Shown: one piece after another, positions 37,333 through 54,613 of the stretch | Numbering within the stretch: position 1 is the first letter of the stretch | Layout: every line of letters starts with the position of its first letter | Source of the DNA: Escherichia phage pEC-N1203-2Af.1 | Direction: 5' to 3' (one strand) | Length of the DNA: 64,000 nucleotides | Sequence record: OQ540978.1 | Program-made: the position numbers and the translations under genes | The notes under the pieces: generated by a model | What the model saw: the letters and a program-made list of their open reading frames with translations, nothing else | What the model was told of the DNA's origin: nothing | Database searches by the model: none

Positions 37333-37411
37333 CGCTCTTTAAAAATCAGGCTAGAAAGTGAAAAATACTTGAAAAAGTATTTGACAACTGGAAAGCCTAA
37401 CCTATAATGAG
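37333..37411 (+). repeat. 79-bp direct repeat, copy 1 (promoter module)
   Basis: Identical to 37552-37630; contains CGCTCTTTAA motif, AAATACTT/AAGTATTT inverted repeat, TTGACA and TATAAT. Confidence 0.8.
37381..37408 (+). promoter_or_regulatory. Strong sigma70-type early promoter (TTGACA-N16-TATAAT) with A/T-rich upstream element
   Basis: Consensus -35 at 37381-37386 and consensus -10 at 37403-37408. Confidence 0.6.
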
Positions 37412-37551
37412 CTTAGAAAGACAAGATGACCGCTCAAGTAACTCCCTAGTGAGTGAAGCAAGTCAGACGCAGGCAGGCGGATACCATTCCCCGGAATAAT
37501 CGCAGGTTATCTGATTATCAAATGGTGTTATGGGAGCCATACAGCTTTAAA

Positions 37552-37630
37552 CGCTCTTTAAAAATCAGGCTAGAAAGTGAAAAATACTTGAAAAAGTATT
37601 TGACAACTGGAAAGCCTAACCTATAATGAG
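37552..37630 (+). repeat. 79-bp direct repeat, copy 2 (promoter module)
   Basis: Identical to 37333-37411. Confidence 0.8.
37600..37627 (+). promoter_or_regulatory. Strong sigma70-type early promoter (TTGACA-N16-TATAAT)
   Basis: Consensus -35 at 37600-37605 and -10 at 37622-37627. Confidence 0.6.
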
Positions 37631-37904
37631 CACAAGTCAGCGATGACGTGAAACATCCCCGCTCTTTAAAAATTTATCATCTTGCCCTTTCGCATAGATT
37701 CACGCGAGATAAGGGAAAAGAATAAAAGAAGATGATAAAAAGAGTTTGACAAGCTAACACGACGTGTTAAGCTGTAAATGTAGTAACCGCTCTTTAACAA
37801 TATGGATCATAAGTTTAAGCCTCATCGCTTGATCTTCAATCAAACAAAGCTGATTGATATATCCTCCCAATAGCGGGAACGATGAAAAAAGATTAAAAAA
37901 GCGG

Positions 37905-37933
37905 TTGACAGCGAAAACATCATGGTCCATAAT
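37905..37933 (+). promoter_or_regulatory. Sigma70-type early promoter (TTGACA-N17-CATAAT) with upstream A-tract
   Basis: -35 at 37905-37910, -10 at 37928-37933, preceded by AAAAAAGATTAAAAAAG. Confidence 0.55.
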
Positions 37934-39759: not shown

Positions 39760-39861
39760 GTAATACGATTATAATAAACATGAGGCGCTATCTTAACGGG
39801 TAGCGCCTTTTCTTTTATCAGTGCATTGATTCAGTGCATTAATCAAAGAATATAATCAAAG

Positions 39862-41196: not shown

Positions 41197-41224
41197 GCCC
41201 CGGCTACGGCTGGGGCTTTTTTAT
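41197..41224 (+). terminator. Rho-independent terminator (UACG tetraloop)
   Basis: GCCCCGGC-UACG-GCUGGGGC followed by UUUUUUAU. Confidence 0.6.
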
Positions 41225-41246: not shown

Positions 41247-41564
41247 ATGAAAAACCCATTCGAGCTGATAAGTACAGATCCTGTAGAGGTCAACATGCTT
41301 TCATTGAAGTCCAAACTGGTCATCATTCTTACGAAGCTAATTCGTGAGCAGGGTTGGTCGCAGTGTGTTGCCGCAGAGAAGCTAGGTGTTAGCCAGCCAA
41401 GGATTAGTAACCTTATGAATGGACAGCTTTCAAAGTTCTCCGTCGATACATTGTTGGAAATGGTTTTCAAGATGGGGTATAAGCTGGACATGGACTTCAC
41501 TCCACTAAACACCAGATCGCCACTGGCAATATTTGTAAAAGGTGATGGTGTAAGTTACAAATAG
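41247..41564 (+). CDS. XRE-family helix-turn-helix DNA-binding protein
   Basis: ORF 105 aa; GWSQCVAAEKLGVSQPRISNLMNG is a classic XRE/HigA-type HTH. Confidence 0.6.
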   Translation: MKNPFELISTDPVEVNMLSLKSKLVIILTKLIREQGWSQCVAAEKLGVSQPRISNLMNGQLSKFSVDTLLEMVFKMGYKLDMDFTPLNTRSPLAIFVKGDGVSYK

Positions 41565-41677: not shown

Positions 41678-42067
41678 ATGTTGACATTGACTATTTATTA
41701 TGAGGCAGGGAACCAGCCAACCGCATGTAAGGCTTTAGTTGCGGATACCGTGATAAATAGAATGGCCCAACGAAAACTGACCGCTGAACAGGTGATAAGA
41801 CAAAAGAACCAGTTTGAGTGGATTCCGGTACTATTAAAACAGGAGAAACCTTATAAACGTTATGTAAAGCTGATTCGTGATAAGAATCCGATGACTAAGC
41901 AAGCCATTGGAGAAAGCGAGCGACTTGCTAAACGTGCCCTTAAGAAGAATTATGTTCCGCTGTATAGTGGGACTTACTTTCAGAGTAAGAGCGAAGGGGT
42001 GCCAAAATGGTATGCCAATCCTATGTATTGTGGTGATTTAGTGTTCGATAATAGCTCTAGGGAATAA
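41678..42067 (+). CDS. SleB-like cell-wall hydrolase domain protein (putative)
   Basis: ORF 129 aa; TIYYEAGNQP...ALVADTVINRM...QFEW resembles the Hydrolase_2/SleB motif. Confidence 0.4.
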   Translation: MLTLTIYYEAGNQPTACKALVADTVINRMAQRKLTAEQVIRQKNQFEWIPVLLKQEKPYKRYVKLIRDKNPMTKQAIGESERLAKRALKKNYVPLYSGTYFQSKSEGVPKWYANPMYCGDLVFDNSSRE

Positions 42068-42266
42068 TCACTAGTGCCAGATTTGACAAACTAAATTCCT
42101 TTATAAACCAACCACTTAGTAAATTTATTGAAAAAGATGGTAGTATTCTGGGACTATAGGTAATGCTCTGTATATAGACCCTTTGAAAATTTCTTAGAAA
42201 ATAAGTTTACTAAATATAACTTACTTAAATAATATTACTTTTAATCTCTGATAAAGGGTAAATAAT

Positions 42267-42563
42267 ATGACTTTAGAAGTATATAAATTCCTTTTTGTAA
42301 GCTGTTTAACTATCAGCGTTATAGGATTTATTGTTCTCAGAAACAAAGCAGCAAGCTGGGAGAGAATGTATAGATCTCTAGTCCGAGTGGATGAGATGTA
42401 TAATGAGAAAGTTAAAGCAACTCTTAATGATCTTATCATGCAAGTTGAAGACAGAAACAAGCGTCTTCAGAATCTCAATCATGAAGTGTTGCGCCTTGCT
42501 CGTGCTAATGAAGATTTGCGAGTAGCTATAGCTAAGCAGCAGGAGATTAACAGTGATAATTGA
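42267..42563 (+). CDS. Membrane-anchored coiled-coil protein
   Basis: ORF 98 aa; N-terminal TM FLFVSCLTISVIGFIVL then heptad-like region. Confidence 0.45.
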   Translation: MTLEVYKFLFVSCLTISVIGFIVLRNKAASWERMYRSLVRVDEMYNEKVKATLNDLIMQVEDRNKRLQNLNHEVLRLARANEDLRVAIAKQQEINSDN

Positions 42564-42792
42564 CATGAATCACCCACCGAAGAGGTTAACTCTTGGGGAT
42601 CTAGATTCAGGTGATGTGTTCCAATTCCTTGTGAACTCTGATGATTTTTACATGGCTTCCTGTAGATTTAATAAATCGGATGGTTGTAGAAATTACATGA
42701 ACCTTTCAAACGGTGTGATCTCAGCAGATCGTAATAGTGTGGTTGTTAAGAAGATTAACAATGCTCGACTCACGAACAAGGCGGAAGAATGA
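42553..42792 (+). CDS. Small paralogous early protein, family member 1 (GD[VI]F ... NL[ST]xG motif)
   Basis: ORF 79 aa; LTLGDLDSGDVFQF...YMAS...NLSNGVIS. Confidence 0.5.
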   Translation: MIIDMNHPPKRLTLGDLDSGDVFQFLVNSDDFYMASCRFNKSDGCRNYMNLSNGVISADRNSVVVKKINNARLTNKAEE

Positions 42793-43046
42793 AGATTGAT
42801 CTTGAGATGAAAGACCCAGATCTTACAGTGGGTGATTTAAAGCTTGGAGATGTATTCCAAGTTAAAGCTACACGCGTCGATCATTATTTGGTTGTTAGTT
42901 TATTCACTCCACACGTAACCGAGTCGAACAGGAAAGATTCTGGAACAGTTGTGCTTGGTTTAAGAACTAATCAGGTTATGAAGCTCAATTCAAAACTTCC
43001 TGTAATCCTTATCCCAGATGCAGTAATTACTAATAAAGGTAAGTGA
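42789..43046 (+). CDS. Small paralogous early protein, family member 2
   Basis: ORF 85 aa; LTVGDLKLGDVFQV...YLVVS; ATGA overlap with member 1. Confidence 0.5.
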   Translation: MKIDLEMKDPDLTVGDLKLGDVFQVKATRVDHYLVVSLFTPHVTESNRKDSGTVVLGLRTNQVMKLNSKLPVILIPDAVITNKGK

Positions 43047-43265
43047 ATGGAAATTAAAGTGGTTGATTATCCTAAATATGCAAATGCAGAAGACGTTAAA
43101 GGTGGTGATGTTTTCTCTTACGATAAACGTTTCTGGCTGATGCTAGAAGATAAAACCCCTGATGGTTTGTGTAAGGCTGCTAACTTGAGCAGTGGTTCTG
43201 TTGAAGTCTTCGGTCTATCAACCACTGTTATGCCACGTCCTGATCTGTGTTTATCTCAAAAGTAA
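43047..43265 (+). CDS. Small paralogous early protein, family member 3
   Basis: ORF 72 aa; EDVKGGDVFSY...NLSSGSVEV. Confidence 0.5.
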   Translation: MEIKVVDYPKYANAEDVKGGDVFSYDKRFWLMLEDKTPDGLCKAANLSSGSVEVFGLSTTVMPRPDLCLSQK

Positions 43266-43622
43266 CACCGACTTATAGCCCTTGTGTTTATCAGAGGGCT
43301 ATGTGAGGGTGTTCCTCATTAACTTATTAATTCAGGCATATGCCACACCGCTAGGGAGAGCTTGCTCGAACATCCGGTGCTAGACTAAAACCTGTTAATT
43401 TTCGAAAGACTTTCTAATATGTAGGGGTACATATTGGTTTGGGATTCAGGAGACTTCCTAGGGGTAGGGAGTCTTCACCAGTTGGAATAAGAGATAGCTC
43501 TAGAACCTGAACTCTTAGGCAGAGAAGGTCGGCAATGAGTACGCGGTCAGGATTAGTCTACTGACTAGGGCTATCCCTTATATCAACTGGCAATAATGCC
43601 TCCACTAACAAAGAGAGATAGG

Positions 43623-43763
43623 TATGAAAGTATCAACCAAACGTATGAACCGCCCTGAACGTATGGATGCAGTAGCTAACGGTGCTCTGAAACTGGAAGG
43701 CTTCTGGGTTCATGCAATGTCAGCCATCCGTAACAAGCAAGGCAACTGGACATATGGTAACTA
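43623..43763 (+). CDS. Small hypothetical protein (46 aa)
   Basis: Untracked ORF MKVSTKRMNRPERMD...; follows a 357-nt ORF-free stretch. Confidence 0.25.
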
Positions 43764-43957
43764 ACAAAGAACAAAAAGCGATCTGTCGTTGTGCCCCTTT
43801 CTTCTTTGCAGAAGACGGGGATGTGTTCAGTAAGCTTGCACAAGAGTTGGGATGTTCTCGAACTGGTGCTAAGGTAGTCTTTCATAAGTGGATTATTTCT
43901 TCTGACTCTTATGTGGCTATGAAACTTCGAGAGCTGCAAATACATACTCTTGAATAA
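43754..43957 (+). CDS. Small hypothetical protein
   Basis: Internal ATG of ORF 43712-43957 (MVTNKEQKAI...). Confidence 0.3.
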   Translation: MVTNKEQKAICRCAPFFFAEDGDVFSKLAQELGCSRTGAKVVFHKWIISSDSYVAMKLRELQIHTLE

Positions 43958-43963
43958 AAGAAA

Positions 43964-43992
43964 GGCTGCCTTCGGGTGGCCTTTGTTGTTTT
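43964..43992 (+). terminator. Rho-independent terminator (UUCG tetraloop)
   Basis: GGCUGCC-UUCG-GGUGGCC followed by UUUGUUGUUUU. Confidence 0.65.
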
Positions 43993-44163
43993 AATTAAGG
44001 GACAACTCTTACTTAAACTAACAACGGGTGTATGGTATTGACAGGCATCGGCATGGAACTTGTTACCAACAAGGTTGGCGAATCAAGACCTCTGTGAAGC
44101 TCCGAAGAAATCAAGGCAGGTTCGACTCCTGCTCCCCGACCAAATTAACAATAGGAAGCTCAA

Positions 44164-44340
44164 ATGTCTAAGCAAACAATCAAGAATACACAAGCTGGTT
44201 ACTCTTATGTTAACTCTCCTTGCTGTGGTGCTCGTGTTAATCTGGTTAAAGAAGAGGTTCGTATCGTTCAGCGTGGCGCTACTGTTGTTCGTTCATGCTG
44301 TGTCTGTGGTAATGACATTTTTATCAAAGGTAAAGTATGA
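44164..44340 (+). CDS. Small Cys-rich protein (58 aa)
   Basis: Untracked ORF MSKQTIKNTQAGYSYVNSPCCGARVNL...SCCVCGND; ATGA overlap with next gene; tracked ORF 44060-44356 in another frame judged spurious. Confidence 0.35.
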   Translation: MSKQTIKNTQAGYSYVNSPCCGARVNLVKEEVRIVQRGATVVRSCCVCGNDIFIKGKV

Positions 44341-44561
44341 TTATCATCCGCTCTGAGCCTAGAGATAATACTTTTGGCAGTCTACGTAATGGTGATGTGT
44401 TCTCTCTAGAGATAGATGGGGATACAAAACCTCCTTTATATATGAAGGTTATGCACAGACATGCTATCTGTATAAATAACCCTGAAACAAGATTTACATT
44501 TGATAGAACTTGCCCTGTCAAATACTATCAAGCTACCCTAAATGTTAGGAGAGTAGGATGA
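44337..44561 (+). CDS. Small paralogous early protein, family member 4
   Basis: ORF 74 aa; FGSLRNGDVFSL...YMKV. Confidence 0.5.
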   Translation: MIIIRSEPRDNTFGSLRNGDVFSLEIDGDTKPPLYMKVMHRHAICINNPETRFTFDRTCPVKYYQATLNVRRVG

Positions 44562-44809
44562 AAAACTTCCAAGCTGCACCAATAACTAAAGTAATTGAAG
44601 TTGATGGTGTGATGATGACTGTTCCTCTGAACACTCGTTACATTGCAATTGACAAGATGGGTTATGTATGGGCTTGGAAGATTAAGCCTAGCTATAACGC
44701 ACTGTTTGATGAGTTTGTTTGTACTGGTACTTACAGTCCTACATTCTTGGGTTTATTTGGAGAGTTCGAAGGTCAGTATAAAATCATCACTCTCCCTGCT
44801 TGTGTTTGA
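44558..44809 (+). CDS. Hypothetical protein
   Basis: ORF 83 aa, ATGA overlap with upstream gene. Confidence 0.45.
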   Translation: MKNFQAAPITKVIEVDGVMMTVPLNTRYIAIDKMGYVWAWKIKPSYNALFDEFVCTGTYSPTFLGLFGEFEGQYKIITLPACV

Positions 44810-44816
44810 GGTTAAT

Positions 44817-44978
44817 ATGTTCAAGTGGCTAAAGCGTGTCTTTCATTGTCATGATTGGAAGATTATTAATACTCGCCCTCTGGTCTATACAGATTCAGAT
44901 GGAAACAATGACAAGGGCACACGTTACATTATCCAGTGTAAGGTGTGTGGTGAAGTCAGTCATCGTGATGTAATCTAA
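44817..44978 (+). CDS. Small zinc-ribbon-like protein (53 aa)
   Basis: Untracked ORF MFKWLKRVFHCHDW...IQCKVCGEVSHRDVI; same C-H...C-x2-C pattern as 44987-45196. Confidence 0.35.
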   Translation: MFKWLKRVFHCHDWKIINTRPLVYTDSDGNNDKGTRYIIQCKVCGEVSHRDVI

Positions 44979-44986
44979 GGGGTGTT

Positions 44987-45196
44987 ATGTTCTTCCGTAA
45001 GAAAAAGCCCGAAGATTCTGAGTGTAAACATGAGTGGGTGATCACTGAGAATCTTCAAATCACTCACGCTAAAGACACTCCAGTCGAGAGAAAAGAATCT
45101 CGTGTATCTCGTATCTGTAAACGCTGTTTGAAAATAGAGCAGCATAAAGTTCCCGGTCATATAGGTCATGATGTGGCCTTGCGTATCTTCAGTTAA
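44987..45196 (+). CDS. Small zinc-ribbon-like protein
   Basis: ORF 69 aa; ECKHEW...ICKRCLKIEQHKV. Confidence 0.4.
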   Translation: MFFRKKKPEDSECKHEWVITENLQITHAKDTPVERKESRVSRICKRCLKIEQHKVPGHIGHDVALRIFS

Positions 45197-45214
45197 ACAA
45201 ATTCAGAGGTTAAT

Positions 45215-45523
45215 GTGAAACAAAAGCATTTTATCATCTCAACCTTACTACTAATGACAACCATTGGTATCATCTCTGTTAATAGTGCAGAGATTGGAGT
45301 TAAGTATCAGAGTGTTCAGCAATGCACTCTTAAAGAGCATAGCTTAACTGGTATCAAAGAATCTCATGGTATGGTAAGAGATGGGCTTCTGTTTGTAGAA
45401 ACAACTTCTGGTAATCGTGTCATGGCTACTGATGGCAAAGAAACAAAGTATGCCTACTTCCCTGATACAACAGGCTACTACACTTTTGAAGAGAAGGATT
45501 GTAAGAAGTCTTTCTCTTTATAA
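45215..45523 (+). CDS. Secreted protein with signal peptide
   Basis: ORF 102 aa; MKQKHFIISTLLLMTTIGIISVNSAEIG. Confidence 0.5.
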   Translation: MKQKHFIISTLLLMTTIGIISVNSAEIGVKYQSVQQCTLKEHSLTGIKESHGMVRDGLLFVETTSGNRVMATDGKETKYAYFPDTTGYYTFEEKDCKKSFSL

Positions 45524-45532
45524 AAGAATCAA

Positions 45533-45607
45533 GTCCCTATAGTTAAAAGGATATAACAGATTTCTTCTAAAAATCCATTCTAGGTTCGAGTCCTAGTGGG
45601 GACGCCA
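45533..45607 (+). tRNA. tRNA-Arg (anticodon UCU), CCA encoded
   Basis: Manual cloverleaf: acceptor GUCCCUA/UGGGGAC, D-stem GUUA/UAAC, anticodon stem GAUUU/AAAUC with loop CUUCUAA, T-arm CUAGG-UUCGAGU-CCUAG, discriminator G, CCA. Confidence 0.8.
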
Positions 45608-45626
45608 AATCAAATAGGAGGTGGTT

Positions 45627-45926
45627 ATGAGTTGGGGTGGTGTAATTACCTTAACCTGTATCTTTATCGCCTGTGTAGCTCTTACAGGCTGCGTACAGCA
45701 TCGTCCTGATGGATGGTGTGCAGTAGCAGTGGATGGTATTTGTGTTTCTCGCTGGCATAAAGGTGAGAAGATTCCTTCTGGTGAAATTGATATGCGCTGG
45801 AACGGAGCAACCTGCTCCAATGCTAACCCTTCTATCAACGAAGAGGAGTCTACGCCAGACAATGTTGTGATTGATACAGCGTTGTGGTGTGGTGGCTCTA
45901 CGACTACAACCGGTAAGGAGTGGTAA
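45627..45926 (+). CDS. Putative lipoprotein (candidate superinfection-exclusion factor)
   Basis: ORF 45621-45926; ATG 45627 after AGGAGG; signal peptide ending in lipobox-like LTGC; Cys-rich mature part. Confidence 0.45.
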   Translation: MSWGGVITLTCIFIACVALTGCVQHRPDGWCAVAVDGICVSRWHKGEKIPSGEIDMRWNGATCSNANPSINEEESTPDNVVIDTALWCGGSTTTTGKEW

Positions 45927-45927
45927 T

Positions 45928-46176
45928 ATGACAGCTCATTATTGGAATACAAAGAAGCTTCTTGAAGAGATGGCTGGGGGTAGTAGAGTACAACTAATCT
46001 CTATGCTTCGAATGGATGCTCGCTCTTTACGCTTTCAAGTGAAGATCGGTAACTTCAGTGATGGTCTTTATTATACCTTGAAGGAAAGGATTAAGAAGAC
46101 TCACTTCATCATGTACGGACTCAAACCGAGAACGTACGTTAACTACATGTATTGGGATACATGCTACGATAATTGA
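45928..46176 (+). CDS. Hypothetical protein
   Basis: Within ORF 45871-46176; ATG 45928 (MTAHYW) preceded by TAAGGAG. Confidence 0.4.
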   Translation: MTAHYWNTKKLLEEMAGGSRVQLISMLRMDARSLRFQVKIGNFSDGLYYTLKERIKKTHFIMYGLKPRTYVNYMYWDTCYDN

Positions 46177-46183
46177 GGGTGTT

Positions 46184-46405
46184 ATGATATTCGAAGCCAA
46201 GCAAACATTGCCGGTAGTTCCTTTGTCTACACTTCTTAGTGGGAGTGCTTTTAGACATGATAACGGTTTTTGGATTAAAGGAAACCAAGAGGTTGGAGGA
46301 TATATCACCTGCATCAATATCTGCAATGGTGTTGTTGAGGTAAAGCGTCCAGCCGCTGAAGTAACTCCTCAACCCAATGCAAAGGTTGTAGGTTTGGTAT
46401 ATTAA
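46184..46405 (+). CDS. Small paralogous early protein, family member 5
   Basis: ORF 73 aa; very similar to 46415-46636 (shared FWIK...GYITC.N..NG...P.AKV.PQP.AK..GLVY). Confidence 0.55.
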   Translation: MIFEAKQTLPVVPLSTLLSGSAFRHDNGFWIKGNQEVGGYITCINICNGVVEVKRPAAEVTPQPNAKVVGLVY

Positions 46406-46414
46406 GGAACTTAT

Positions 46415-46636
46415 ATGAAATTAGATTCTAAACAATCCCTTAAAACTGTTGAACTGTCCACACTGCCAAACGGAAGTATCTTTGGTCACGATAAACACTT
46501 CTGGATTAAAACAGACTACTTGAACGATGGGTATATCACCTGTGTCAACCTTTGGAATGGTTCAGTGGATGGTTATCGCCCTAATGCAAAGGTAATCCCT
46601 CAGCCTGATGCAAAGGCTACAGGTTTAGTTTACTAA
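46415..46636 (+). CDS. Small paralogous early protein, family member 6 (tandem duplicate of member 5)
   Basis: ORF 73 aa; near-colinear with 46184-46405. Confidence 0.55.
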   Translation: MKLDSKQSLKTVELSTLPNGSIFGHDKHFWIKTDYLNDGYITCVNLWNGSVDGYRPNAKVIPQPDAKATGLVY

Positions 46637-46645
46637 GGAGTTCAT

Positions 46646-46819
46646 ATGAGCTGTTATGGTGGCGGTGAAGTATATGATGACGATGACATGGAATCCAATG
46701 GTACATGCCCTGACTGTGGGTGTGAGACGTTTGATGGTGTGTCAGTATATCCTGCCTGTAGTTATTCACCAGTGATCTGTAAAACATGCGGAGATCAACC
46801 TTGTGATCAGTCCTGTTAG
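46646..46819 (+). CDS. Small Cys-rich protein (57 aa)
   Basis: Untracked ORF MSCYGGGEVYDDDDMESNGTCPDCGCETF...ICKTCGDQPCDQSC with AAGGAG RBS. Confidence 0.35.
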   Translation: MSCYGGGEVYDDDDMESNGTCPDCGCETFDGVSVYPACSYSPVICKTCGDQPCDQSC

Positions 46820-47036
46820 TATCTTGATTGTCTACTTAATAGGTATGGTGATAGTTTCAGCTCTGATAAAATTCCTCGATGTAAAAGGTAGTGTCGAGTT
46901 CAGAGGGTGGAATAACGAACCAAACTTATCAAAGATAGCGATTATGGTTTTTCTATGGCCCATCGTTGCTGTGATTCTTATATCTCTTGTTTTGTGGGCA
47001 TGGCTGTGGGATATGATTCTTCCCGCAAGAAAGTAA
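46803..47036 (+). CDS. Small membrane protein (2 TM)
   Basis: ORF 77 aa, two hydrophobic segments; start uncertain (GTG). Confidence 0.35.
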   Translation: MISPVSILIVYLIGMVIVSALIKFLDVKGSVEFRGWNNEPNLSKIAIMVFLWPIVAVILISLVLWAWLWDMILPARK

Positions 47037-47252
47037 GAGCTTATCGTTAAGGATTCTTACGAGAGTCCTTTGAGATAGGACTTCAGATCTCCTATCAAAC
47101 TAACATTCACGTAACTAGCCCATAAGGGCGTTACCCTTTAATAACCCAGCCCACTAAGGGGGCGGGAGTTTAGTGCTGGATGAGCATAACGCTTATTCCT
47201 ACAAAGGCAACCGATTGTTAGATCTTACATGCAACATTAATTAATAGGATAA

Positions 47253-47284
47253 GGGAGGATTCGTCCCCTCCCCCTATTTTATTG
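47253..47284 (+). terminator. Hairpin/terminator
   Basis: GGGAGG-AUUCGUCC-CCUCCC followed by CUAUUUUAUUG. Confidence 0.4.
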
Positions 47285-47331
47285 AATCTTTATCTAAGCA
47301 AGTCTTATATAAATGTTTAATTGGAGGATGT

Positions 47332-47643
47332 ATGAAAGCTCGAAGAACTATATGGACTCCGATACAGATTGAAAATCTTCGGAGACTAATCAAAGAGTAC
47401 TCTGTTCAAGAGGTTGCTCAGATTATGAATGTAACGGAGAATGCAGTTAATACAGCTTGTACTAAGTTCGGTATATCAAGAGCTGTACTCCGAGTTAAGT
47501 GGTCTAAAGAAGAAGACCAGTTCCTTATCCGTAATGCTGGGTTTATGTCTATTCAGAGAATGGCTGACATGCTCGGTAGAAGTTATGCTGCTGTACAGAA
47601 CAGAGCATGTATGCACCTTAACATTAGTCTAAAACTTAAATAG
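47332..47643 (+). CDS. DNA-binding protein with two HTH-like repeats (putative transcription regulator)
   Basis: ORF 103 aa; two similar segments (WTPIQIENLRRLIKEYSVQEVAQIM... and WSKEEDQFLIRNAGFMSIQRMADMLGRS). Confidence 0.45.
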   Translation: MKARRTIWTPIQIENLRRLIKEYSVQEVAQIMNVTENAVNTACTKFGISRAVLRVKWSKEEDQFLIRNAGFMSIQRMADMLGRSYAAVQNRACMHLNISLKLK

Positions 47644-47651
47644 GAATCAAT

Positions 47652-47897
47652 ATGAAGATCATCCCAAAGAAAAAGGATAATACGGTACGATTGGAAACAA
47701 TCATTCCCGGAAACCCTTTCGTGGTTCAGCACGGAAGTGCCTCTCCTCAATATTATATGAGGGTTGAAAATGCATCTGGTAACATCCGTATAGCCAGTGG
47801 TTGGATTCCTGTAGTGAATCTATCCACTGGAGTATTAGCTGTTAAAGGTGCTGATGAACAGGTTGAAATGATTCGTATGTCAGTGGTTCAGGAGTAG
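47652..47897 (+). CDS. Small paralogous early protein, family member 7
   Basis: ORF 81 aa; LETIIPGNPFVV...YYMRV...NLSTGVLAV. Confidence 0.5.
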   Translation: MKIIPKKKDNTVRLETIIPGNPFVVQHGSASPQYYMRVENASGNIRIASGWIPVVNLSTGVLAVKGADEQVEMIRMSVVQE

Positions 47898-47899
47898 GT

Positions 47900-48142
47900 A
47901 TGAGCACAATACATATCAAAGTTCATCATGAAGAAGAAAAGAAACTCTTTGTTAAAGATCTATCGATCGCTGATATCTTCACTTTAAAAGAAGATGATAA
48001 TCAGATCATCTATTTGATGATGCCTGTGACTGGAGGGTATCGAAGGGCTGTTTGTTTGGGTACAGGTGTGCCCCGTCCTGTTGCTGATACTCTTGAAGTT
48101 GGTGAGAAGTTTAGTAAGGCTGAAATTATCTTAACTCCATAG
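47900..48142 (+). CDS. Small paralogous early protein, family member 8
   Basis: ORF 80 aa; LSIADIFTL...YLMMP...LGTGVPRPV. Confidence 0.5.
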   Translation: MSTIHIKVHHEEEKKLFVKDLSIADIFTLKEDDNQIIYLMMPVTGGYRRAVCLGTGVPRPVADTLEVGEKFSKAEIILTP

Positions 48143-48150
48143 GAAAATAA

Positions 48151-48267
48151 ATGAGACGTAAAGCATATTCTTATGACGATATGATTAACCAGAAAGGCTT
48201 CGGTCAACGACAGCCTGATGGTTCAATTATCTGGTTCGTAAATGGACAGAAAAAGGTAGCTAAATAA
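48151..48267 (+). CDS. Small hypothetical protein (38 aa)
   Basis: Untracked ORF MRRKAYSYDDMINQKGFG... Confidence 0.25.
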   Translation: MRRKAYSYDDMINQKGFGQRQPDGSIIWFVNGQKKVAK

Positions 48268-48373
48268 GCCCTCTTCTCTCCTCCTTTTAGTACTATGACG
48301 CCTCTCTGTGGGCGGCCCAATTTGCGTAGGGAATTCCCTCTACGCAGCCATAACTTTTTAAGGAATTTCCCCT

Positions 48374-48607
48374 ATGTCTAAAGTAAGCGCAATCGATGCA
48401 ATCCGTCAACCGTTCCAGTTCCAATCCAAATCAACTCAAACCTTCAGTGAGCCTAAGCAAATTCGCTTGGGTGGCACAGAGAAGACTGTATTTGATCTGG
48501 CTAAAAACAAAAGCGTTACCGTAGTTGATGGTGGCACTCTGGTTAACGTTTCCCATCGCATCCGCACTGGCAAAACTGCCAAAGATCGTGCCAAGAAAGG
48601 TGAGTGA
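48374..48607 (+). CDS. Hypothetical protein
   Basis: ORF 77 aa. Confidence 0.45.
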   Translation: MSKVSAIDAIRQPFQFQSKSTQTFSEPKQIRLGGTEKTVFDLAKNKSVTVVDGGTLVNVSHRIRTGKTAKDRAKKGE

Positions 48608-48846
48608 TGAAAATAGGGAAACCGGCTGATGGTATAATAAAGATTAGTGATATATCTATTGGGGAAGTTTTCTCAGCAGAGCACTTTTCAAGTTACTACA
48701 TGAAAATCCCTAACACTAAAGTAGAGGGTTGCATCATTCCTGCCAACGCAGTTAACCTGAACACAGGCCATCTGTCTGCATTCAAACCTGATTTACAGGT
48801 TACTGAAATCCGAGATGCCTATCTCGCCTTTGGTGGGGATAAATAG
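48604..48846 (+). CDS. Small paralogous early protein, family member 9
   Basis: ORF 80 aa; ISDISIGEVFSA...YYMKI...NLNTGHLSAF. Confidence 0.5.
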   Translation: MMKIGKPADGIIKISDISIGEVFSAEHFSSYYMKIPNTKVEGCIIPANAVNLNTGHLSAFKPDLQVTEIRDAYLAFGGDK

Positions 48847-48850
48847 AGTG

Positions 48851-49066
48851 ATGATAACACTTGTGTCAGTAGTTTACAGATTACACTATCGTCTAGATAA
48901 AGGAAAATCCTATAAATGCAAGAGTAAGACAGGGAATCGATGCTCTGTAGAAAATAACTCTGGTCAATGGGTGGATGTACCTTGTTGTTGGTTCAGGAAA
49001 GATTTGACTAGCAAAGAGATTGACGAAATTCTTAGTGATGATTTTGTAAAATCAGGTGATTTTTAG
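48851..49066 (+). CDS. Small Cys-rich hypothetical protein
   Basis: Within ORF 48815-49066; ATG 48851; CKSKTGNRCSVENNSGQWVDVPCCW. Confidence 0.35.
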   Translation: MITLVSVVYRLHYRLDKGKSYKCKSKTGNRCSVENNSGQWVDVPCCWFRKDLTSKEIDEILSDDFVKSGDF

Positions 49067-49832: not shown

Positions 49833-51026
49833 ATGTTTCCAGTAACATTAGAAGATACTGAAGGTAATGTTTTAACGGTCCACCCTCCTTGTTATGGGTT
49901 CCTTCAGCTTCGCAACTATAATGGTGGCGTTGATGAAGATGATTACGAAGATGAATACTTCGACCCTAACATGTATGAGGCAACTCATGGATGGAATATG
50001 CACGTTCGAGTGTGGCATGAAGAAGCTAACGTTCGTAGTGCTGATGGGGAAGAGTTCCTGTTAAGCCGAGAGATGGATATGTGTAAAATCAAGCATATCT
50101 GGAACTCCGGAACTCACATGAAGATGTTAGGTTTTAGACGATGGCGTGATGAAAAACCTGTATCCGCAGATTTATGTTGGGGTGCAATTGATCACGAAGG
50201 CGAGCTTAAAAATAACATTGAGCACTGGAATGATAAAAACCCTGAGTATCAAACCTCACCTCGTGCTGTACTGGAAGCTATGGAAGCATTTGTGGACAAA
50301 GATCGTCCCTCCTGTTTACGCTGGCACGAAAAAGGTTTTATGGGTGTAGCAACTGAGAATGTTCCTGCTGATCGTTGTCTGTTCTATTTAATGTTAGATC
50401 GAACCTTCTATTGTGATGATGAAGAGAGTCAAGTTGAAACCTTCCTTCATAAATGGTTGGTTGAAGGCTGGACAATTCTTCAGGCTTACGTTTACTCACG
50501 AATGGTTAGCACTTACACTAACCTCTTGGGTGAAACGAAAGCTACTCTTGTTGGTAATGATTGGGATGCTTGTATCTTCCCAGCGTCGTTGTTTACGGTT
50601 GGTATGGCTGATAAATATGCTGAAGCATTTCAAGTGCCTTGGCGTCAACAGTCATACAGAGATGGATGCGGTCACTTCCGTGATGAAGACTTTAAGTGGA
50701 TTCATTACGAGAATGATGAAACAGCAGAATTACGAGTTAATAACTCGATGTTCTTGCCGGTGATGCACCCTGATTTAGTAGAGAATGAATCAGAAATCCT
50801 GAAATGTGACAACCTTCTGATTAACTTTACCCGTCGCGTATCTAAAGATGAGAGAACAGCTAATAGTCTAATCTACGGCATCCGTGCTGAGACTAAAGAT
50901 CTGTTCAACATTTATAACATTGTTCAGCGATTTAGTAGTGGAACTATGGACCAAAGTTCAGTGTATTCAGTGATTCCATCCTCTGAGTGGGATGGTATTA
51001 TGAGCGGATTATTTTTAGGAAAATAA
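49833..51026 (+). CDS. Hypothetical protein (amidoligase island, unknown function)
   Basis: ORF 397 aa; Trp/Asp/Glu-rich; no motif recognised. Confidence 0.5.
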   Translation: MFPVTLEDTEGNVLTVHPPCYGFLQLRNYNGGVDEDDYEDEYFDPNMYEATHGWNMHVRVWHEEANVRSADGEEFLLSREMDMCKIKHIWNSGTHMKMLGFRRWRDEKPVSADLCWGAIDHEGELKNNIEHWNDKNPEYQTSPRAVLEAMEAFVDKDRPSCLRWHEKGFMGVATENVPADRCLFYLMLDRTFYCDDEESQVETFLHKWLVEGWTILQAYVYSRMVSTYTNLLGETKATLVGNDWDACIFPASLFTVGMADKYAEAFQVPWRQQSYRDGCGHFRDEDFKWIHYENDETAELRVNNSMFLPVMHPDLVENESEILKCDNLLINFTRRVSKDERTANSLIYGIRAETKDLFNIYNIVQRFSSGTMDQSSVYSVIPSSEWDGIMSGLFLGK

Positions 51027-51036
51027 AAGGTTAGTT

Positions 51037-52008
51037 ATGTCAATCTCCACAACGATCGTACCTCTGAATCTTCAACAAGATTTAGGGGAACAGAAGTTCT
51101 TAGGTCGTGGGTGCTTCGGTATCCACAACTATATGCAAGGCCAGTGTGTAAATGATATTAATGGTGAAGTTATCACTGAAGAGGGGCGTTATAGACGCTT
51201 CAACCGTGATATCAACTTGCAATTGGAGATGTTGAATTACTGGACTCACTCTTTTCACGGTCATGTTCCATCTGAAATTGAAAAGAACTTGGTTGAAACA
51301 GCAGACATTATGAACTCTATGTCTTGCTATCGTGATGTATTTACAATCACTTCAGCGAATAGTGTAGCTGTCAACCTCCGTGAGCATCCAGCAGATCAGA
51401 TCTTCACAGGACTTATGCTCTTCCGTAGCATTCTGGAAGGGCAGTATCGTGGAATGGATTTCCTAGCAGAAGGAATTGAAGACAGGGAAGAGTGGCTGAA
51501 GCGTAAACGCATCGGAATCGCTCTAGTGTTAGCTGGGTTGGGTCGTGACTTCTTCGGTGGGTGGTCTCAACGAGGAAGAGCTAATGGGAGTAGCGAGAGC
51601 ACCTCTATTGTTGTTAATAACGATATGTCAGCAGCAGCATTCCTTCCTTTGGTTGTAGACTCTGATGAATACACGAAACAAGTATGGGTTCAAAACCCCT
51701 TCGGTGTTGGTGACAACGAGAATGGTTATGTTCGTAACCATAGTCAAGAAGCCTTACGAAGATTTGCTCGTGCTAAAGATCAAGACCCGGACGAGTATGA
51801 AACAATGTCAGAGTGGTTAAGACTCTGGTCCAACTGTCATGGTCACAAACGTGAAGCAATAGACAATAAGTTGGAAAACATTACAGTACAAAACTTTACA
51901 GCCCGACTAATTCAGCGTACTGGCCCAAGCTCTGGCCTTGCTATTGAAGAAGTTGGTAACACAATCTCATCTCTATTTTCTGAACTAGTGGAGTATTACA
52001 ATGACTAA
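51037..52008 (+). CDS. Hypothetical protein (amidoligase island, unknown function)
   Basis: ORF 323 aa; no motif recognised. Confidence 0.5.
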   Translation: MSISTTIVPLNLQQDLGEQKFLGRGCFGIHNYMQGQCVNDINGEVITEEGRYRRFNRDINLQLEMLNYWTHSFHGHVPSEIEKNLVETADIMNSMSCYRDVFTITSANSVAVNLREHPADQIFTGLMLFRSILEGQYRGMDFLAEGIEDREEWLKRKRIGIALVLAGLGRDFFGGWSQRGRANGSSESTSIVVNNDMSAAAFLPLVVDSDEYTKQVWVQNPFGVGDNENGYVRNHSQEALRRFARAKDQDPDEYETMSEWLRLWSNCHGHKREAIDNKLENITVQNFTARLIQRTGPSSGLAIEEVGNTISSLFSELVEYYND

Positions 52009-52807
52009 GCGCAAATTCCTTATCGGCTCTGACCCTGAAATGTTCGTTCGTACCAGCAATGGCATCATCACCTCTGTGGCTGGTCTGTTAGGTTGTTCTA
52101 AGGACGATAAGATCACTCTGGCTAAGGATGTTCGTCTTCAAGAGGACAACGTACTGGCTGAGTTTGATATCGACCCACAGAGCGGTTTTGAAGCGTTTAA
52201 CGATAACATGCAACGTGGTATCGATCTCACCAACAATGTCCTGAACAAACTGGACATGGAAACAGCTCCGGGTGTTAGCTCTCACATCTTCACTGAAGAA
52301 GAGATGAAGACTTTCAATGAATCAGCGTTCATCTTCGGATGTACTCCTGATTTCAACGCTTTCACTGGTCAGAAGAATCCATCCCCGACTTCTCAGAATA
52401 AAGGGCTTCGTACTGCCGGTGGTCACGTACATCTTGGCGTAGTTGGTGCTTTGGATATCACCCTGCAAACTCAAATGATGCTGGGTGTGCTGTGTGACTA
52501 CTTCCTGTCCCTCCCAGCAGTTATTATGGATAAAGATACTCGCCGTAAAGAACTCTACGGTAAAGCGTCTGCAATCCGTTATAAAGATTATGGTATTGAG
52601 TATCGTTCACTGTCTAACTTCTGGATTAGTGATCGTGAAAACCGTAAGTTTGTTTACGATCAGGTTGACAAAGTTGTTCAGCAGTGTGATATGTCCACTC
52701 TGATGGCATTGCACTCTCGCCTTCCGATTGAGAAGCTTCATGAAATCATTAACGGCAACAACGTTAAAGAAGCGGACCAGCAGATCAAACTCCTTCAGGT
52801 AGCATAA
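52001..52807 (+). CDS. Glutamine-synthetase-like carboxylate-amine ligase (amidoligase) paralog A
   Basis: ORF 268 aa; FLIGSDPEMFV and RTAGGHVHLGV parallel GIELELEG and RCSTHVHMDMR in 53431-54534; pattern of GCS2/YbdK-type amidoligases. Confidence 0.45.
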   Translation: MTKRKFLIGSDPEMFVRTSNGIITSVAGLLGCSKDDKITLAKDVRLQEDNVLAEFDIDPQSGFEAFNDNMQRGIDLTNNVLNKLDMETAPGVSSHIFTEEEMKTFNESAFIFGCTPDFNAFTGQKNPSPTSQNKGLRTAGGHVHLGVVGALDITLQTQMMLGVLCDYFLSLPAVIMDKDTRRKELYGKASAIRYKDYGIEYRSLSNFWISDRENRKFVYDQVDKVVQQCDMSTLMALHSRLPIEKLHEIINGNNVKEADQQIKLLQVA

Positions 52808-52816
52808 GAGGTTATC

Positions 52817-53434
52817 GTGAGCTTAGTAGCTGATTTTTCTCATTACTATAATGGTACATGGATTGCTAAACGAGCAGGTAATATCAACCTTCCGTGTTTT
52901 GTGATTGGTGTTGAGCAGAGCGGTAACTTCCGCAGCGATGACTTCTCTCACGAAGCAGAACAGGCTCTGTACTTTGTTGTAGAGCAGTGGTATAAGAACG
53001 AGCAAGGGCATCTTCGAAACACTACAATGAATATTCCAGTGTTCGACCCAACCTTGATTCTTGAATCACCTGACGTTGGTTATCTGTTCCATAATGGTAA
53101 CACTGTAAGCTGGACTCATATTAACCCTGTTCGTCAGAGAGCAAAGGGTTTAATGGGTAATAAGATTCGAAATGCTCCGGGTATTGGTCGTGCTATCTCC
53201 GGGGAGATGGTTTACAGCCTGTTCAATCCTGAATTCGAAGGATTGGTTACTCGTTATATTTACATCAACCCTACTGATGGTAAGGTGCATTATAAAGGTG
53301 CACTGGTAGGACAAGTAGATCTGGAAGCGCCTCGTGACTCTTACGGTCAGCAATCAATTCGACTTCTGGAACACTTTCATCACATTTCTGAAAACCTTAG
53401 CAATTATAATATTACGTTGGTGGATTCGTTATGA
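52817..53434 (+). CDS. Hypothetical protein (amidoligase island)
   Basis: ORF 205 aa; ATGA overlap into next gene. Confidence 0.5.
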   Translation: MSLVADFSHYYNGTWIAKRAGNINLPCFVIGVEQSGNFRSDDFSHEAEQALYFVVEQWYKNEQGHLRNTTMNIPVFDPTLILESPDVGYLFHNGNTVSWTHINPVRQRAKGLMGNKIRNAPGIGRAISGEMVYSLFNPEFEGLVTRYIYINPTDGKVHYKGALVGQVDLEAPRDSYGQQSIRLLEHFHHISENLSNYNITLVDSL

Positions 53435-54534
53435 CAACTGTAGCGCAAACTTTTGGATATCGAGAAGGTCATTTAACTGAGGCGCATAGTTCAATTGCAC
53501 TTCAGTGTGGTGTCGGTATCGAACTAGAACTCGAAGGTTCCGATCATATCGAAGCAGATATGTGGGATTGTACAGAGGATGGTTCCCTGCGTAATGGTTG
53601 TGAAATGGTATGTTCACGACCTTACAACGGACAGGAGTTGTTAGACGCTATCAACAACCTGAGTGAAGCAGTAGCTGAATCGCACGCCGAGGGGACTTGG
53701 CGTTGCTCTACTCACGTTCATATGGATATGAGGGATGCTGATAGTAATATCCTCAAGAAAACCATTCTCGCTTGGACCTTCTATGAAAAGATGTTGTTCA
53801 AGTGTTCAGGCTACCATCGTTACCGTAGCAACTTCTGCCCTGCTTTCGCAGTGGTACAAGCACAGGTAATGAATGCCTCTGACGCATTTAACTACGACGA
53901 TGAAGAGTTCTTCAACCGTCTGGTTCGTTCATGGGATAAATATACATCTCTGAACCTTCTGCCACTTGCCCAATACGGTTCGATCGAGTTCCGTATCAGT
54001 GAGCCTAAGTGGAAACGTGGTCAACTTCTCAATCTGGTTAACCGCTTCTTGATGTTGAAGAAGCTTGCATTAGATAACGCAGAGATGAGCAATGATCAGT
54101 TTATTGAGCATTTAAATACTGTACGATTTGCCCCAATGCTTCCTTACCTTCCTCTGGATTACAATCTGGACGAATCGGATTTGCATTCAGGTTATTGTAT
54201 GGCCCGTGATGTTTTGTATTGTCGTTCTCATGAAGTAGAACAGTCTGGTCGTATTCGTTTACGTCGAACCAACTCCAACGGAGAAGTTCTTGTTGACCTA
54301 CGTCATATCTCAGACTTCTACGGATTCCTTGGATATGTCCGAGGGAACGCTAACAACTTGTACCAAGAGATTCTGGTTATGCTTCGTACAACTGATCTAT
54401 CTACTGTACGATCTGCACCAGAGCAACGTATCCGTGCTATTTTTGACTTGCTACGTGAGTCAGGCCACAGTGATAACAACATCACAGGATACATTCCAGA
54501 TCATCTGGAAAATCAGTTAGAGCAAGTGCTGTAA
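53431..54534 (+). CDS. Glutamine-synthetase-like carboxylate-amine ligase (amidoligase) paralog B
   Basis: ORF 367 aa; GVGIELELEG...EDGSLRNGCEMV...STHVHMD motifs. Confidence 0.5.
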   Translation: MTTVAQTFGYREGHLTEAHSSIALQCGVGIELELEGSDHIEADMWDCTEDGSLRNGCEMVCSRPYNGQELLDAINNLSEAVAESHAEGTWRCSTHVHMDMRDADSNILKKTILAWTFYEKMLFKCSGYHRYRSNFCPAFAVVQAQVMNASDAFNYDDEEFFNRLVRSWDKYTSLNLLPLAQYGSIEFRISEPKWKRGQLLNLVNRFLMLKKLALDNAEMSNDQFIEHLNTVRFAPMLPYLPLDYNLDESDLHSGYCMARDVLYCRSHEVEQSGRIRLRRTNSNGEVLVDLRHISDFYGFLGYVRGNANNLYQEILVMLRTTDLSTVRSAPEQRIRAIFDLLRESGHSDNNITGYIPDHLENQLEQVL

Positions 54535-54613
54535 TCAATGGGTGCCTCTGACAAAGGGGCACAATTTAAAGGTTAATTAGATGAAAGGGTTTACCCTTCA
54601 GGTGGATTAGAAA

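What the first reader, a model, noticed from the sequence alone, without database searches (positions are those of the whole stretch)
42553..48846. Nine-member family of small paralogous early proteins
Nine ORFs of 72-85 aa, scattered over 6 kb and often coupled by ATGA overlaps, share a common layout: an N-terminal [LV]xxGD[LV]...GD[VI]F motif, a central Y[LM] and a C-terminal NL[ST]xG. Members 46184 and 46415 are near-identical tandem duplicates. Such expansion of one small fold in the early region is typical of host-takeover or anti-defence proteins diversifying under selection.
Basis: seen in the sequence. Interest (0 to 1): 0.7.

Follow-up and report, generated by a model that had tools for sequence, protein, structure and literature searches.

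The report
Nine-copy small early phage protein family
A phiEco32-like E. coli phage carries nine diverged copies of one small beta-barrel protein in its early genes; the family is real, widespread in phages and has no known function, most plausibly a set of binders aimed at host proteins.

Summary
The nine ORFs exist as described and are true paralogues. Every one is found by a profile built from the other eight (E 2.8e-17 to 3.4e-3), and each orthogroup matches the rest of the family by HHalign (97-99% probability). No tenth member lies in the window.

The window is a Kuravirus (phiEco32/NJ01-like). The genes sit 4.6-11 kb downstream of three consensus sigma-70 promoters, in the cluster that is experimentally early in phiEco32.

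AlphaFold models (pLDDT 85 and 80) give a generic SH3-like small beta-barrel. There is no Pfam, NCBIfam or PADLOC match, and the PHROGs that match have no assigned function.

It has 846 clusters at 50% identity and includes N4 gp21, PaP3 ORF.65 (an experimentally early gene) and four genes of Salmonella phage 7-11.

Kuravirus relatives carry 8-11 copies in four slots, and divergent alleles are swapped between otherwise ~95%-identical genomes. Close orthologues show dN/dS 0.13, the same as neighbouring genes, so this is cassette shuffling under purifying selection, not measurable positive selection.

The pair 46184/46415 is 55% identical, not near-identical.

Function is untested. The best guess is host-protein or defence-protein binders (~0.5).

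The parts
42553..42792 (+). Family member 1 (79 aa, GTG start with AGGAG 7 nt upstream). First gene of slot A. Overlaps the upstream gene by 11 nt and the next member by ATGA.
   Evidence: leave-one-out E 7.1e-15; HHalign 99.3%. Best PHROG 9955. The most variable slot: 57-61% identity to its closest relatives in SU10, NJ01 and Ptacy1479, and 31-35% best hit in phiEco32, MN05, EP335 and SR02.
42789..43046 (+). Family member 2 (85 aa), slot A.
   Evidence: E 1.5e-7; 98.8%. PHROG 9955 E 6e-42. 93% identical to phiEco32 gp114 but 56-66% to the other six relatives.
43047..43265 (+). Family member 3 (72 aa), slot A. Its start abuts the stop of member 2 (TGAATG).
   Evidence: E 1.4e-8; 99.0%. PHROG 6570. 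dN/dS 0.10.
44337..44561 (+). Family member 4 (74 aa), solitary copy, ATGA-coupled on both sides. The most divergent member; it lacks the NLxxG turn.
   Evidence: E 2.5e-3; 3.4e-8; 97.1%, E 7.5e-11. PHROG 10911. AlphaFold model pLDDT 79.5 with the same fold. dN/dS 0.11. No orthologue in Ptacy1479, EP335 or SR02.
46184..46405 (+). Family member 5 (73 aa), first gene of the slot B tandem pair. It corresponds to the allele that occupies this slot alone in SR02 and MN05.
   Evidence: 54.8% identical to member 6; E 9.7e-15; 92% to SR02, 88% to MN05, 53-58% to phiEco32, SU10, NJ01 and EP335, 37% best hit in Ptacy1479; dN/dS 0.15.
46415..46636 (+). Family member 6 (73 aa), second gene of the slot B pair. 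It corresponds to phiEco32 gp104, the allele found alone in phiEco32, SU10 and NJ01.
   Evidence: E 2.8e-17; orthologue at 80-97% in most Kuravirus records; dN/dS 0.13.
47652..47897 (+). Family member 7 (81 aa), slot C, immediately downstream of the two-HTH regulator gene 47332-47643.
   Evidence: E 6.1e-9; 98.5%. PHROG 7431. dN/dS 0.11.
47900..48142 (+). Family member 8 (80 aa), slot C. One of the two weakest members by sequence.
   Evidence: E 3.4e-3; 6.3e-7; 3.8e-14 with the larger HMM; 97.2%, E 3.2e-11. PHROG 12612. 98-99% identical to MN05 and Ptacy1479 but about 50% to phiEco32 and SR02.
48604..48846 (+). Family member 9 (80 aa from GTG 48604; more likely 79 aa from ATG 48607), slot D. 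Among the eight relatives compared, only EP335 has an orthologue.
   Evidence: E 7.8e-13; 89% to EP335. AlphaFold model pLDDT 84.9, pTM 0.72. Foldseek top hit is the EP335 orthologue.
37381..37933 (+). Context: three tandem sigma-70 consensus promoters (12/12, 12/12 and 11/12 matches). They most likely drive the rightward early transcription unit that contains the family.
   Evidence: They match the 'three promoters in the spacer between genes 120 and 121' described for SU10 and phiEco32 (PMC4281155). Their function in this phage is inferred.

Best explanation
SHOWN. The nine genes are diverged paralogues of one roughly 75-residue, cytoplasmic, single-domain protein predicted to fold as an SH3-like small beta-barrel. 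They lie in the sigma-70-driven early gene cluster of a Kuravirus (phiEco32-like podophage).

They belong to a large, unnamed, so far phage-only superfamily. It has 846 clusters at 50% identity and includes N4 gp21, PaP3 ORF.65 and four genes of phage 7-11.

In Kuravirus relatives the family occupies four slots between conserved anchor genes. Each slot holds 0-5 copies drawn from at least two dozen allele types, giving 8-11 copies per genome. Alleles are exchanged between otherwise near-identical genomes, and each allele is under purifying selection.

Conservation is confined to the hydrophobic core and turn residues. The rest of the sequence is free to vary.

INFERRED. Each paralogue acts early in infection as a stoichiometric protein-binding module. 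A constant barrel carries variable loops and surface that bind, and thereby block or redirect, a different host factor or host defence protein. The array is thus a shuffled repertoire of inhibitors. Which targets are bound is unknown.
For: Family and coordinates.

Phage identity and early class:
- 95% identity to NJ01, 90% to phiEco32; synteny with phiEco32 gp95-gp115.
- (three consensus sigma-70 promoters upstream).
- (no exact match to the gp36-type promoter consensus in the region).
- PMC8948821 and PMC12276001 (this cluster is the experimentally early, sigma-70-transcribed class, 'likely host takeover').
- PMC4707531: PaP3 ORFs 57-71, including the family member ORF.65, are expressed in the presence of chloramphenicol, i.e. 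early.

Breadth: 846 clusters; PaP3 ORF.65, E 3e-8; N4 gp21, E 2.9e-17; four members in 7-11; eight natural two-domain fusions.

Cassette behaviour.

Real, maintained genes: (dN/dS 0.13).

Protein binder rather than nucleic-acid binder: pI ranges from 4.9 to 9.2 with a family median of 6.5. Conserved positions are almost all hydrophobic or Gly/Asn/Asp turn residues.

Circumstantial: the BASEL study finds Gordonclarkvirinae 'remarkably resistant' to restriction-modification and to all tested defence systems but Fun/Z, with no known anti-restriction gene (PMC11990801).
Against: - No member of the superfamily has any experimental function.
- There is no homology to any known anti-defence, host-takeover or other characterised protein.
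- No positive selection is detectable among close orthologues. An arms-race model might have predicted it.
- Several orthogroups (those of 42789, 43047, 47652 and 47900) are present in all seven Gordonclarkvirinae relatives compared, which fits a core phage function as well as an accessory one.
- Terminator-like hairpins lie between the early promoters and the family (41197-41216 and 43961-43984). Expression timing in this particular phage is inferred from synteny, not measured.
Confidence: 0.5

Rival explanations
1. They are small nucleic-acid-binding barrels (KOW/Sm/Tudor/cold-shock-like). They would act on RNA, the ribosome or DNA, for example as translation or mRNA-stability modulators of early infection.
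Against: - Net charge at pH 7 runs from -2.5 to +2.7, and the family median pI is 6.5 with only 32% above pI 8.
- No conserved basic or surface aromatic positions; the conserved columns are core hydrophobics and turns.
- No KOW, Sm or CSD Pfam hit for any of 64 diverse members.
Confidence: 0.15
2. They serve the phage itself rather than targeting the host. For example they could be redundant regulators or adaptors for phage replication or transcription, or chaperones. The copy-number variation would then be neutral.
For: Purifying selection equals that on neighbouring genes. Four orthogroups are present in all seven Gordonclarkvirinae relatives compared. Slot C always follows the conserved two-HTH regulator gene.
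Against: - Whole alleles are swapped and slots vary from 0 to 5 copies among genomes that are otherwise ~95% identical, which is unusual for essential machinery.
- No conserved partner gene appears across N4, PaP3, 7-11 and Kuravirus.
- The genes are placed early, before the replication genes.
Confidence: 0.15
3. They are Tudor-like RNA-polymerase-binding domains (as in CarD, the Mfd RID and the UvrD CTD). They would redirect host transcription alongside gp79 and gp36.
Against: [quoted passage not shown] The structural scores are no better than for dozens of unrelated SH3-like barrels.
Confidence: 0.07
4. The ORFs are chance or decaying reading frames, and the shared motif is a compositional artefact.
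For: Many pairwise BLASTP comparisons among the nine are insignificant. Large repeat proteins (RCC1, cadherin) also hit the profile spuriously.
Against: - Leave-one-out HMM, independent-profile and HHalign tests are all significant.
- dN/dS is 0.10-0.25 with dS 0.2-0.46.
- Each gene has a Shine-Dalgarno sequence or is translationally coupled.
- The AlphaFold folds are confident and concordant.
- There are 846 related clusters of the same length.
Confidence: 0.02

Closest known systems
Coliphage N4 gp21 (YP_950499, 74 aa) and Pseudomonas phage PaP3 ORF.65 (NP_775193, 79 aa)
   Same: They are sequence-level members of the same superfamily: E 2.9e-17 and 3e-8 against the family HMM. Both are also Foldseek hits of the model. 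They have the same length and the same MKI...G[DE]xF...Y[MIL]K...VNLxTG layout. PaP3 ORF.65 is experimentally an early gene (PMC4707531).
   Different: They are single-copy in their genomes, against nine here. Neither has a demonstrated function, so they give no mechanism. Only profile methods link them to the window genes; tblastn does not.
PHROG families 6570, 7832, 7431, 8365, 9955, 12612, 16423, 34455 and 10911
   Same: All nine window proteins match one or more of these at E 1e-22 to 1e-42, and cross-hits tie the PHROGs together.
   Different: PHROGs keeps them as at least nine separate families, all labelled 'unknown function'. That they form one superfamily, and one expanded array per Kuravirus genome, is not recorded there.
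SH3-like small beta-barrel folds (ribosomal L2 C-domain, EF-P/eIF5A domain I, KOW, FeoA, Tudor/PWWP, DtxR C-domain)
Variable clusters of small early 'host-takeover' or accessory genes in lytic phages, such as the T4 hyperplastic regions, the SPO1 host-takeover module, T7 class I genes and anti-defence gene islands (comparison from general knowledge)
   Same: Short, translationally coupled genes sit behind strong host-type promoters, with mosaic presence/absence among close relatives and mostly unknown function.
   Different: In those clusters the neighbouring genes are mostly unrelated to one another. Here a single fold supplies about a third of the genes over 6.3 kb and recurs in four slots.
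phiEco32 gp79 (sigma-70 displacing factor) and PaP3 gp70.1 (RpoS binder)
   Same: They are small early or middle proteins of the same or related phages that act by binding a host protein. They are the only characterised examples of the proposed mode of action in these phages (PMC12276001, PMC5035744).
   Different: They are not homologous to the family. The family HMM finds no further member in the window. PaP3 gp70.1 is a 130-aa protein on the opposite strand and is not hit.

Membership tests
Unnamed phage superfamily containing N4 gp21, PaP3 ORF.65 and PHROG 6570/7431/9955 etc. | Significant full-length profile match to the roughly 75-residue domain | tested here: met
   All nine score E 6.7e-23 to 6.3e-7 against an HMM built mainly from unrelated members. 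HHalign gives 97-99%.
Unnamed phage superfamily containing N4 gp21, PaP3 ORF.65 and PHROG 6570/7431/9955 etc. | Signature residues: N-terminal MKI, G[DEN][VI]F (F invariant), Y[MIL][KR], VNLx[TN]G, and C-terminal V...AxL | tested here: met
   Column statistics are and the alignments. Member 44337 lacks the NLxxG turn and 42789 has GLRTN there, but both keep the rest of the signature.
Unnamed phage superfamily containing N4 gp21, PaP3 ORF.65 and PHROG 6570/7431/9955 etc. | Shared predicted fold | tested here: met
   Models of 48604 and 44337 both retrieve the same BFVD phage proteins. The 44337 model matches the 48604 orthologue of EP335 at TM 0.76.
SH3-like small beta-barrel fold class | Five to six strand partly open barrel of 60-80 residues with a 3-10 turn | tested here: met
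KOW / Tudor / FeoA sequence families | Match to the Pfam model, or conservation of the KOW glycine motif or the Tudor aromatic cage | tested here: not met
   No Pfam hit at E <= 0.01 to any KOW, Tudor or FeoA model in the nine or in 64 diverse relatives. The only conserved aromatics are F23 and Y32, inside predicted strands.
RNAP-interacting Tudor-like domains (CarD, Mfd RID, UvrD CTD) | Physical association with RNA polymerase | tested here: not met
   This rests on literature rather than a test of my own. [quoted passage not shown]
Known anti-defence or host-takeover proteins | Homology to a characterised inhibitor family | tested here: not met
   No Pfam, NCBIfam or PADLOC match, and no PDB sequence match (best E 0.21). 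A dedicated anti-defence HMM library was not available.
Known anti-defence or host-takeover proteins | Demonstrated inhibition of a host defence system or host enzyme | not testable with these tools
   This needs genetics or biochemistry. Only circumstantial support exists: early placement, cassette mosaicism, and the broad defence resistance of Gordonclarkvirinae (PMC11990801).
phiEco32-type early gene class | Transcription from sigma-70 promoters early in infection | tested here: inconclusive
   Synteny with phiEco32 gp95-gp115 and consensus promoters at 37381-37933 both fit. However, terminator-like hairpins intervene, and there are no expression data for this phage. The primary papers (Savalia 2008, Pavlova 2012) could not be read.

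The most novel reading that the evidence does not exclude
The superfamily is a phage-wide 'constant barrel, variable surface' binder scaffold. Kuraviruses keep a recombining library of 8-11 such binders, each neutralising a different host defence or host factor. This would explain why Gordonclarkvirinae resist restriction-modification and nearly all tested defence systems without any recognisable anti-restriction gene. The natural two-domain fusions would mean the working unit is a dimer.
Probability: 0.2. Interest if true: 0.8.

Novelty: new member of a known kind. Interest (0 to 1): 0.5.

Why it matters
Early phage genes of unknown function are the main reservoir of host-takeover and anti-defence proteins. 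Here about a third of the genes in a 6.3-kb early stretch collapse into one fold.

That fold also ties together at least nine 'unknown' PHROGs, N4 gp21, PaP3 ORF.65 and 846 metagenomic clusters. One experimental characterisation would therefore annotate a very large set of phage ORFans.

The cassette-like variation gives a natural experiment: closely related phages that differ only in their alleles. Kuraviruses that plate on K-12 derivatives (BASEL Bas86-93) now make the test practical.

If the proteins turn out to be anti-defence binders, they could explain the unexplained restriction resistance of this phage subfamily, which is used in therapy-oriented collections.

Tried and rejected
- Pairwise BLASTP among the nine. 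Only 5 of 36 pairs reached E <= 1e-3, so profile methods were needed.
- Pfam, NCBIfam and PADLOC on the nine, and Pfam on 64 diverse relatives: nothing significant.
- Profile search of all PDB sequences: best E 0.21, noise.
- Large multi-stretch hits of the representative search turned out to be spurious repeat matches: P0092 is an RCC1 protein and P0095 a cadherin. P0144 and P0219 gave only fragmentary domain hits.
- tblastn of distant metagenomic members against cultured phages: essentially nothing, so their phage types remain unknown.
- The search for related loci with the diverse alignment failed because no stretch was conserved enough. The second homologous-protein search returned only 12 proteins.
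- PaP3 gp70.1, an RpoS binder, was considered as a characterised relative and rejected: it is a 130-aa protein on the other strand and is not hit by the HMM.
- A possible tRNA remnant at 44116-44132, suggested by the hairpin scan, was not supported by ARAGORN or Rfam.
- A literature search found no description of this paralogy in any accessible Kuravirus, phiEco32 or 7-11 paper. The two primary phiEco32 papers are not held, so an earlier mention there cannot be excluded.
- No residue-level burial analysis was possible, because model coordinates are not exposed to scripts.

Full report
**What the window is.** Megablast of 42000-49000 finds 111 phage records, almost all Escherichia Kuravirus/Gordonclarkvirinae. 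The best are NJ01 at 95% identity and phiEco32 at 90%.

Late genes lie on the minus strand (about 3.7-34 kb). From about 35.6 kb everything runs rightward. Three near-perfect sigma-70 promoters sit at 37381-37408, 37600-37627 and 37905-37933. These match the three early promoters described between genes 121 and 120 of SU10 and phiEco32 (PMC4281155).

The gp36-type middle/late promoter consensus TAATGTATA matches exactly only in the late region. The finding's interval corresponds to phiEco32 gp115-gp93. [quoted passage not shown]

**The observation.** All nine ORFs exist at the stated coordinates. Their mean pairwise identity is only about 25%, and just 5 of 36 BLASTP pairs reach E <= 1e-3. Profile tests are nevertheless unambiguous:
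- A leave-one-out HMM finds each omitted member among the 454 window ORFs at E 2.8e-17 to 3.4e-3. The full model finds no tenth member (next best E 0.47).
- An HMM built from 64 sequences, of which only three come from the window, recovers the other six at E 1.5e-19 to 6.3e-7.
- HHalign of each orthogroup against the rest of the family gives 97.1-99.4% probability, E 7.5e-11 to 1.6e-21.

Each gene has a Shine-Dalgarno sequence or is translationally coupled.

Four details of the finding need correcting:
- 46184 and 46415 are 55% identical in protein, with about 60% of nucleotide columns invariant. They are not near-identical.
- The first 'GD' of the proposed motif is present in only two members.
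- True ATGA overlaps occur at three junctions.
- The last member probably starts at ATG 48607.

**Fold.** AlphaFold2 with a 98-107-sequence alignment gives confident all-beta models for 48604 (pLDDT 84.9, pTM 0.72) and for the most divergent member, 44337 (pLDDT 79.5).

Foldseek against viral models returns dozens of uncharacterised 65-90-residue phage proteins. The two window models hit the same set, and the 44337 model matches the EP335 orthologue of 48604 at TM 0.76.

Sequence libraries give nothing: no Pfam, NCBIfam, PADLOC or PDB-sequence match. PHROGs splits the family into at least nine groups, all of unknown function.

**Breadth.** An exhaustive HMM search of 1.84 billion cluster representatives finds 846 at E <= 1e-3, nearly all 65-90 residues long. 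Eight of the best 150 are genuine fusions of two complete domains. The very large hits are repeat-protein artefacts.

Scanning fetched genomes shows N4 gp21 (E 2.9e-17), PaP3 ORF.65 (E 3e-8) and four genes of Salmonella phage 7-11 to be members. Two metagenomic phage-like contigs carry one or two.

PaP3 ORF.65 belongs to the ORF57-71 set that is expressed in the presence of chloramphenicol, meaning it is an early gene (PMC4707531). In PaP3, 7-11 and the window, the members lie in the early block upstream of a shared amidoligase/GFAT module.

**Dynamics in Kuravirus relatives.** Copy numbers are:

| Phage | Family members |
|---|---|
| window | 9 |
| phiEco32 | 9 |
| SU10 | 9 |
| Ptacy1479 | 10 |
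| NJ01 | 10 |
| MN05 | 8 |
| EP335 | 11 |
| SR02 | 8 |
| Salmonella phage PKM.Hi.22.6 | at least 6 |

The 83 members fall into 24 groups at 55% single linkage. They occupy four slots bounded by conserved genes:
- Slot A, after the gp116-like gene: 3-5 copies.
- A solitary gp109-type copy.
- Slot B, after the gp105-like gene: 1-2 copies.
- Slot C, after the two-HTH regulator: 2-5 copies.
- An occasional copy after the gp93-like gene (the 48604 type).

The window's slot B holds side by side the two alleles that occur singly in SR02/MN05 (46184 type) and in phiEco32/SU10/NJ01 (46415 type).

Best-hit identities of family genes to seven relatives are bimodal, either 86-99% or 30-69%. Most neighbouring genes are 90-100% identical.

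Among orthologues at or above 75% identity, Nei-Gojobori dN/dS is 0.10-0.25 per family gene. Pooled it is 0.13 with dS 0.32, against 0.12 for non-family genes. The genes are therefore real and constrained. The diversity comes from swapping old, divergent alleles, not from measurable positive selection on recent lineages.

**What constrains the sequence.** Weighted column statistics over about 300 members show where the high-information positions lie: M2, K3, I4, F/L14, D16, L17, G20, D21, V22, F23, Y32, M33, K34, G42, A49, V50, N51, L52, T/N54, G55, V66, A72 and L74 (numbering of the 48604 ORF). These are predominantly strand-core hydrophobics and turn residues, and everything else is free.

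The nine proteins have pI 4.9-9.2 and net charge -2.5 to +2.7. The family median pI is 6.5.

**Interpretation.** These points are shown:
- a nine-member paralogous family with one predicted SH3-like fold;
- early-cluster location by synteny and promoters;
- membership of a large uncharacterised phage superfamily;
- cassette-like variation under purifying selection.

The function is inferred. A constant scaffold with a variable surface, no enzymatic motif, neutral charge, early timing and mosaic repertoires best fit stoichiometric protein binders directed at host factors or host defence proteins (about 0.5).

That fits the unexplained resistance of Gordonclarkvirinae to restriction-modification and to almost all tested defence systems (PMC11990801), though this is circumstantial.

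The rivals are:
- Nucleic-acid or ribosome binding (0.15). The L2/EF-P/KOW matches suggest it; charge and the conservation pattern argue against.
- A phage-internal role (0.15). Universally present orthogroups and purifying selection suggest it.
- RNAP binding through a Tudor-like surface (0.07). It is disfavoured because RNAP from phiEco32-infected cells carried only gp36 and gp79.
- Non-genes (0.02), which the tests above refute.

**Novelty and score.** The genes are annotated 'hypothetical protein' in over 100 deposited genomes. None of the accessible Kuravirus, phiEco32 or 7-11 papers mentions the paralogy. The 2008 and 2012 phiEco32 papers could not be read.

Expanded, mosaic sets of small early genes are a familiar phage phenomenon. 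What is added here is threefold. One fold accounts for nine genes in this window. That fold unites many 'unknown' PHROGs with N4 gp21 and PaP3 ORF.65. Its variation is by allele shuffling.

I rate it a new member of a known kind, with interest 0.5. It is solid and useful for annotation and for choosing experimental targets, but it has no established mechanism.

Noticed in passing
window 37381-37933 (+): Three tandem sigma-70 consensus promoters (12/12, 12/12 and 11/12 matches) sit in a ~1.8-kb gene-poor spacer. They are the likely early promoter cluster of the phage.
   Followed up: partly
window 49833-56644 (+): A module of two conserved unknown genes, a COOH-NH2 ligase, an amidoligase and a glutamine-fructose-6-P aminotransferase-like gene. 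It is syntenic with PaP3 orf45-50 and 7-11 gp102-107. In all three phages the small-barrel family lies upstream of it.
   Followed up: partly
window 41197-41216, 43961-43984 and 39782-39809 (+): Strong terminator-like hairpins with T-runs lie inside the early transcription unit, between the early promoters and the family. This implies read-through, antitermination or internal promoters.
   Followed up: no
window ~44817-44978 and 44987-45196 (+); also 44164-44340 and 46646-46819: Several Cys-rich mini-ORFs. The first two share a C-x-H-[DE]-W ... C-K-x-C layout (BLASTP E 0.004 for the single comparison). They may be a second small paralogue pair of zinc-ribbon-like proteins.
   Followed up: partly
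window 47332-47643 (+): A 103-aa regulator with two helix-turn-helix repeats (Sigma70_r4_2-like, annotated 'D5-like transcriptional regulator' in phiEco32). It immediately precedes family slot C in every Gordonclarkvirinae relative examined.
   Followed up: partly
window 41247-41564 (+): An HTH_37/XRE-type protein (E 5.6e-18). Only one of the seven relatives compared (SR02) has it, so it is an accessory regulator gene in the early region.
   Followed up: no
window 41678-42067 (+): A SleB-like cell-wall hydrolase domain (Pfam Hydrolase_2) is encoded in the early region and is 89-100% conserved across relatives. The same domain occurs on the unrelated metagenomic contig L003, which also carries a family member.
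   Followed up: no
window 45533-45607 (+): A tRNA-Arg (anticodon TCT) lies in the middle of the early gene cluster. It is conserved in position in the relatives.
   Followed up: yes
L002 (GCA_037194205.1 contig JBANSD010075327.1, 136,940 bp), locus 1-20249: A large phage-like contig with two family members (10001-10249 and 13463-13699). None of its 36 called genes in 20 kb has a Pfam hit, so it may be a very poorly charted phage lineage.
   Followed up: no
P0094, P0107, P0108, P0113, P0125, P0131, P0151, P0199 (representative-library proteins): Natural fusions of two complete family domains in one 125-184-aa polypeptide. This hints that the domain may work as a dimer, or that tandem genes fuse readily.
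   Followed up: partly
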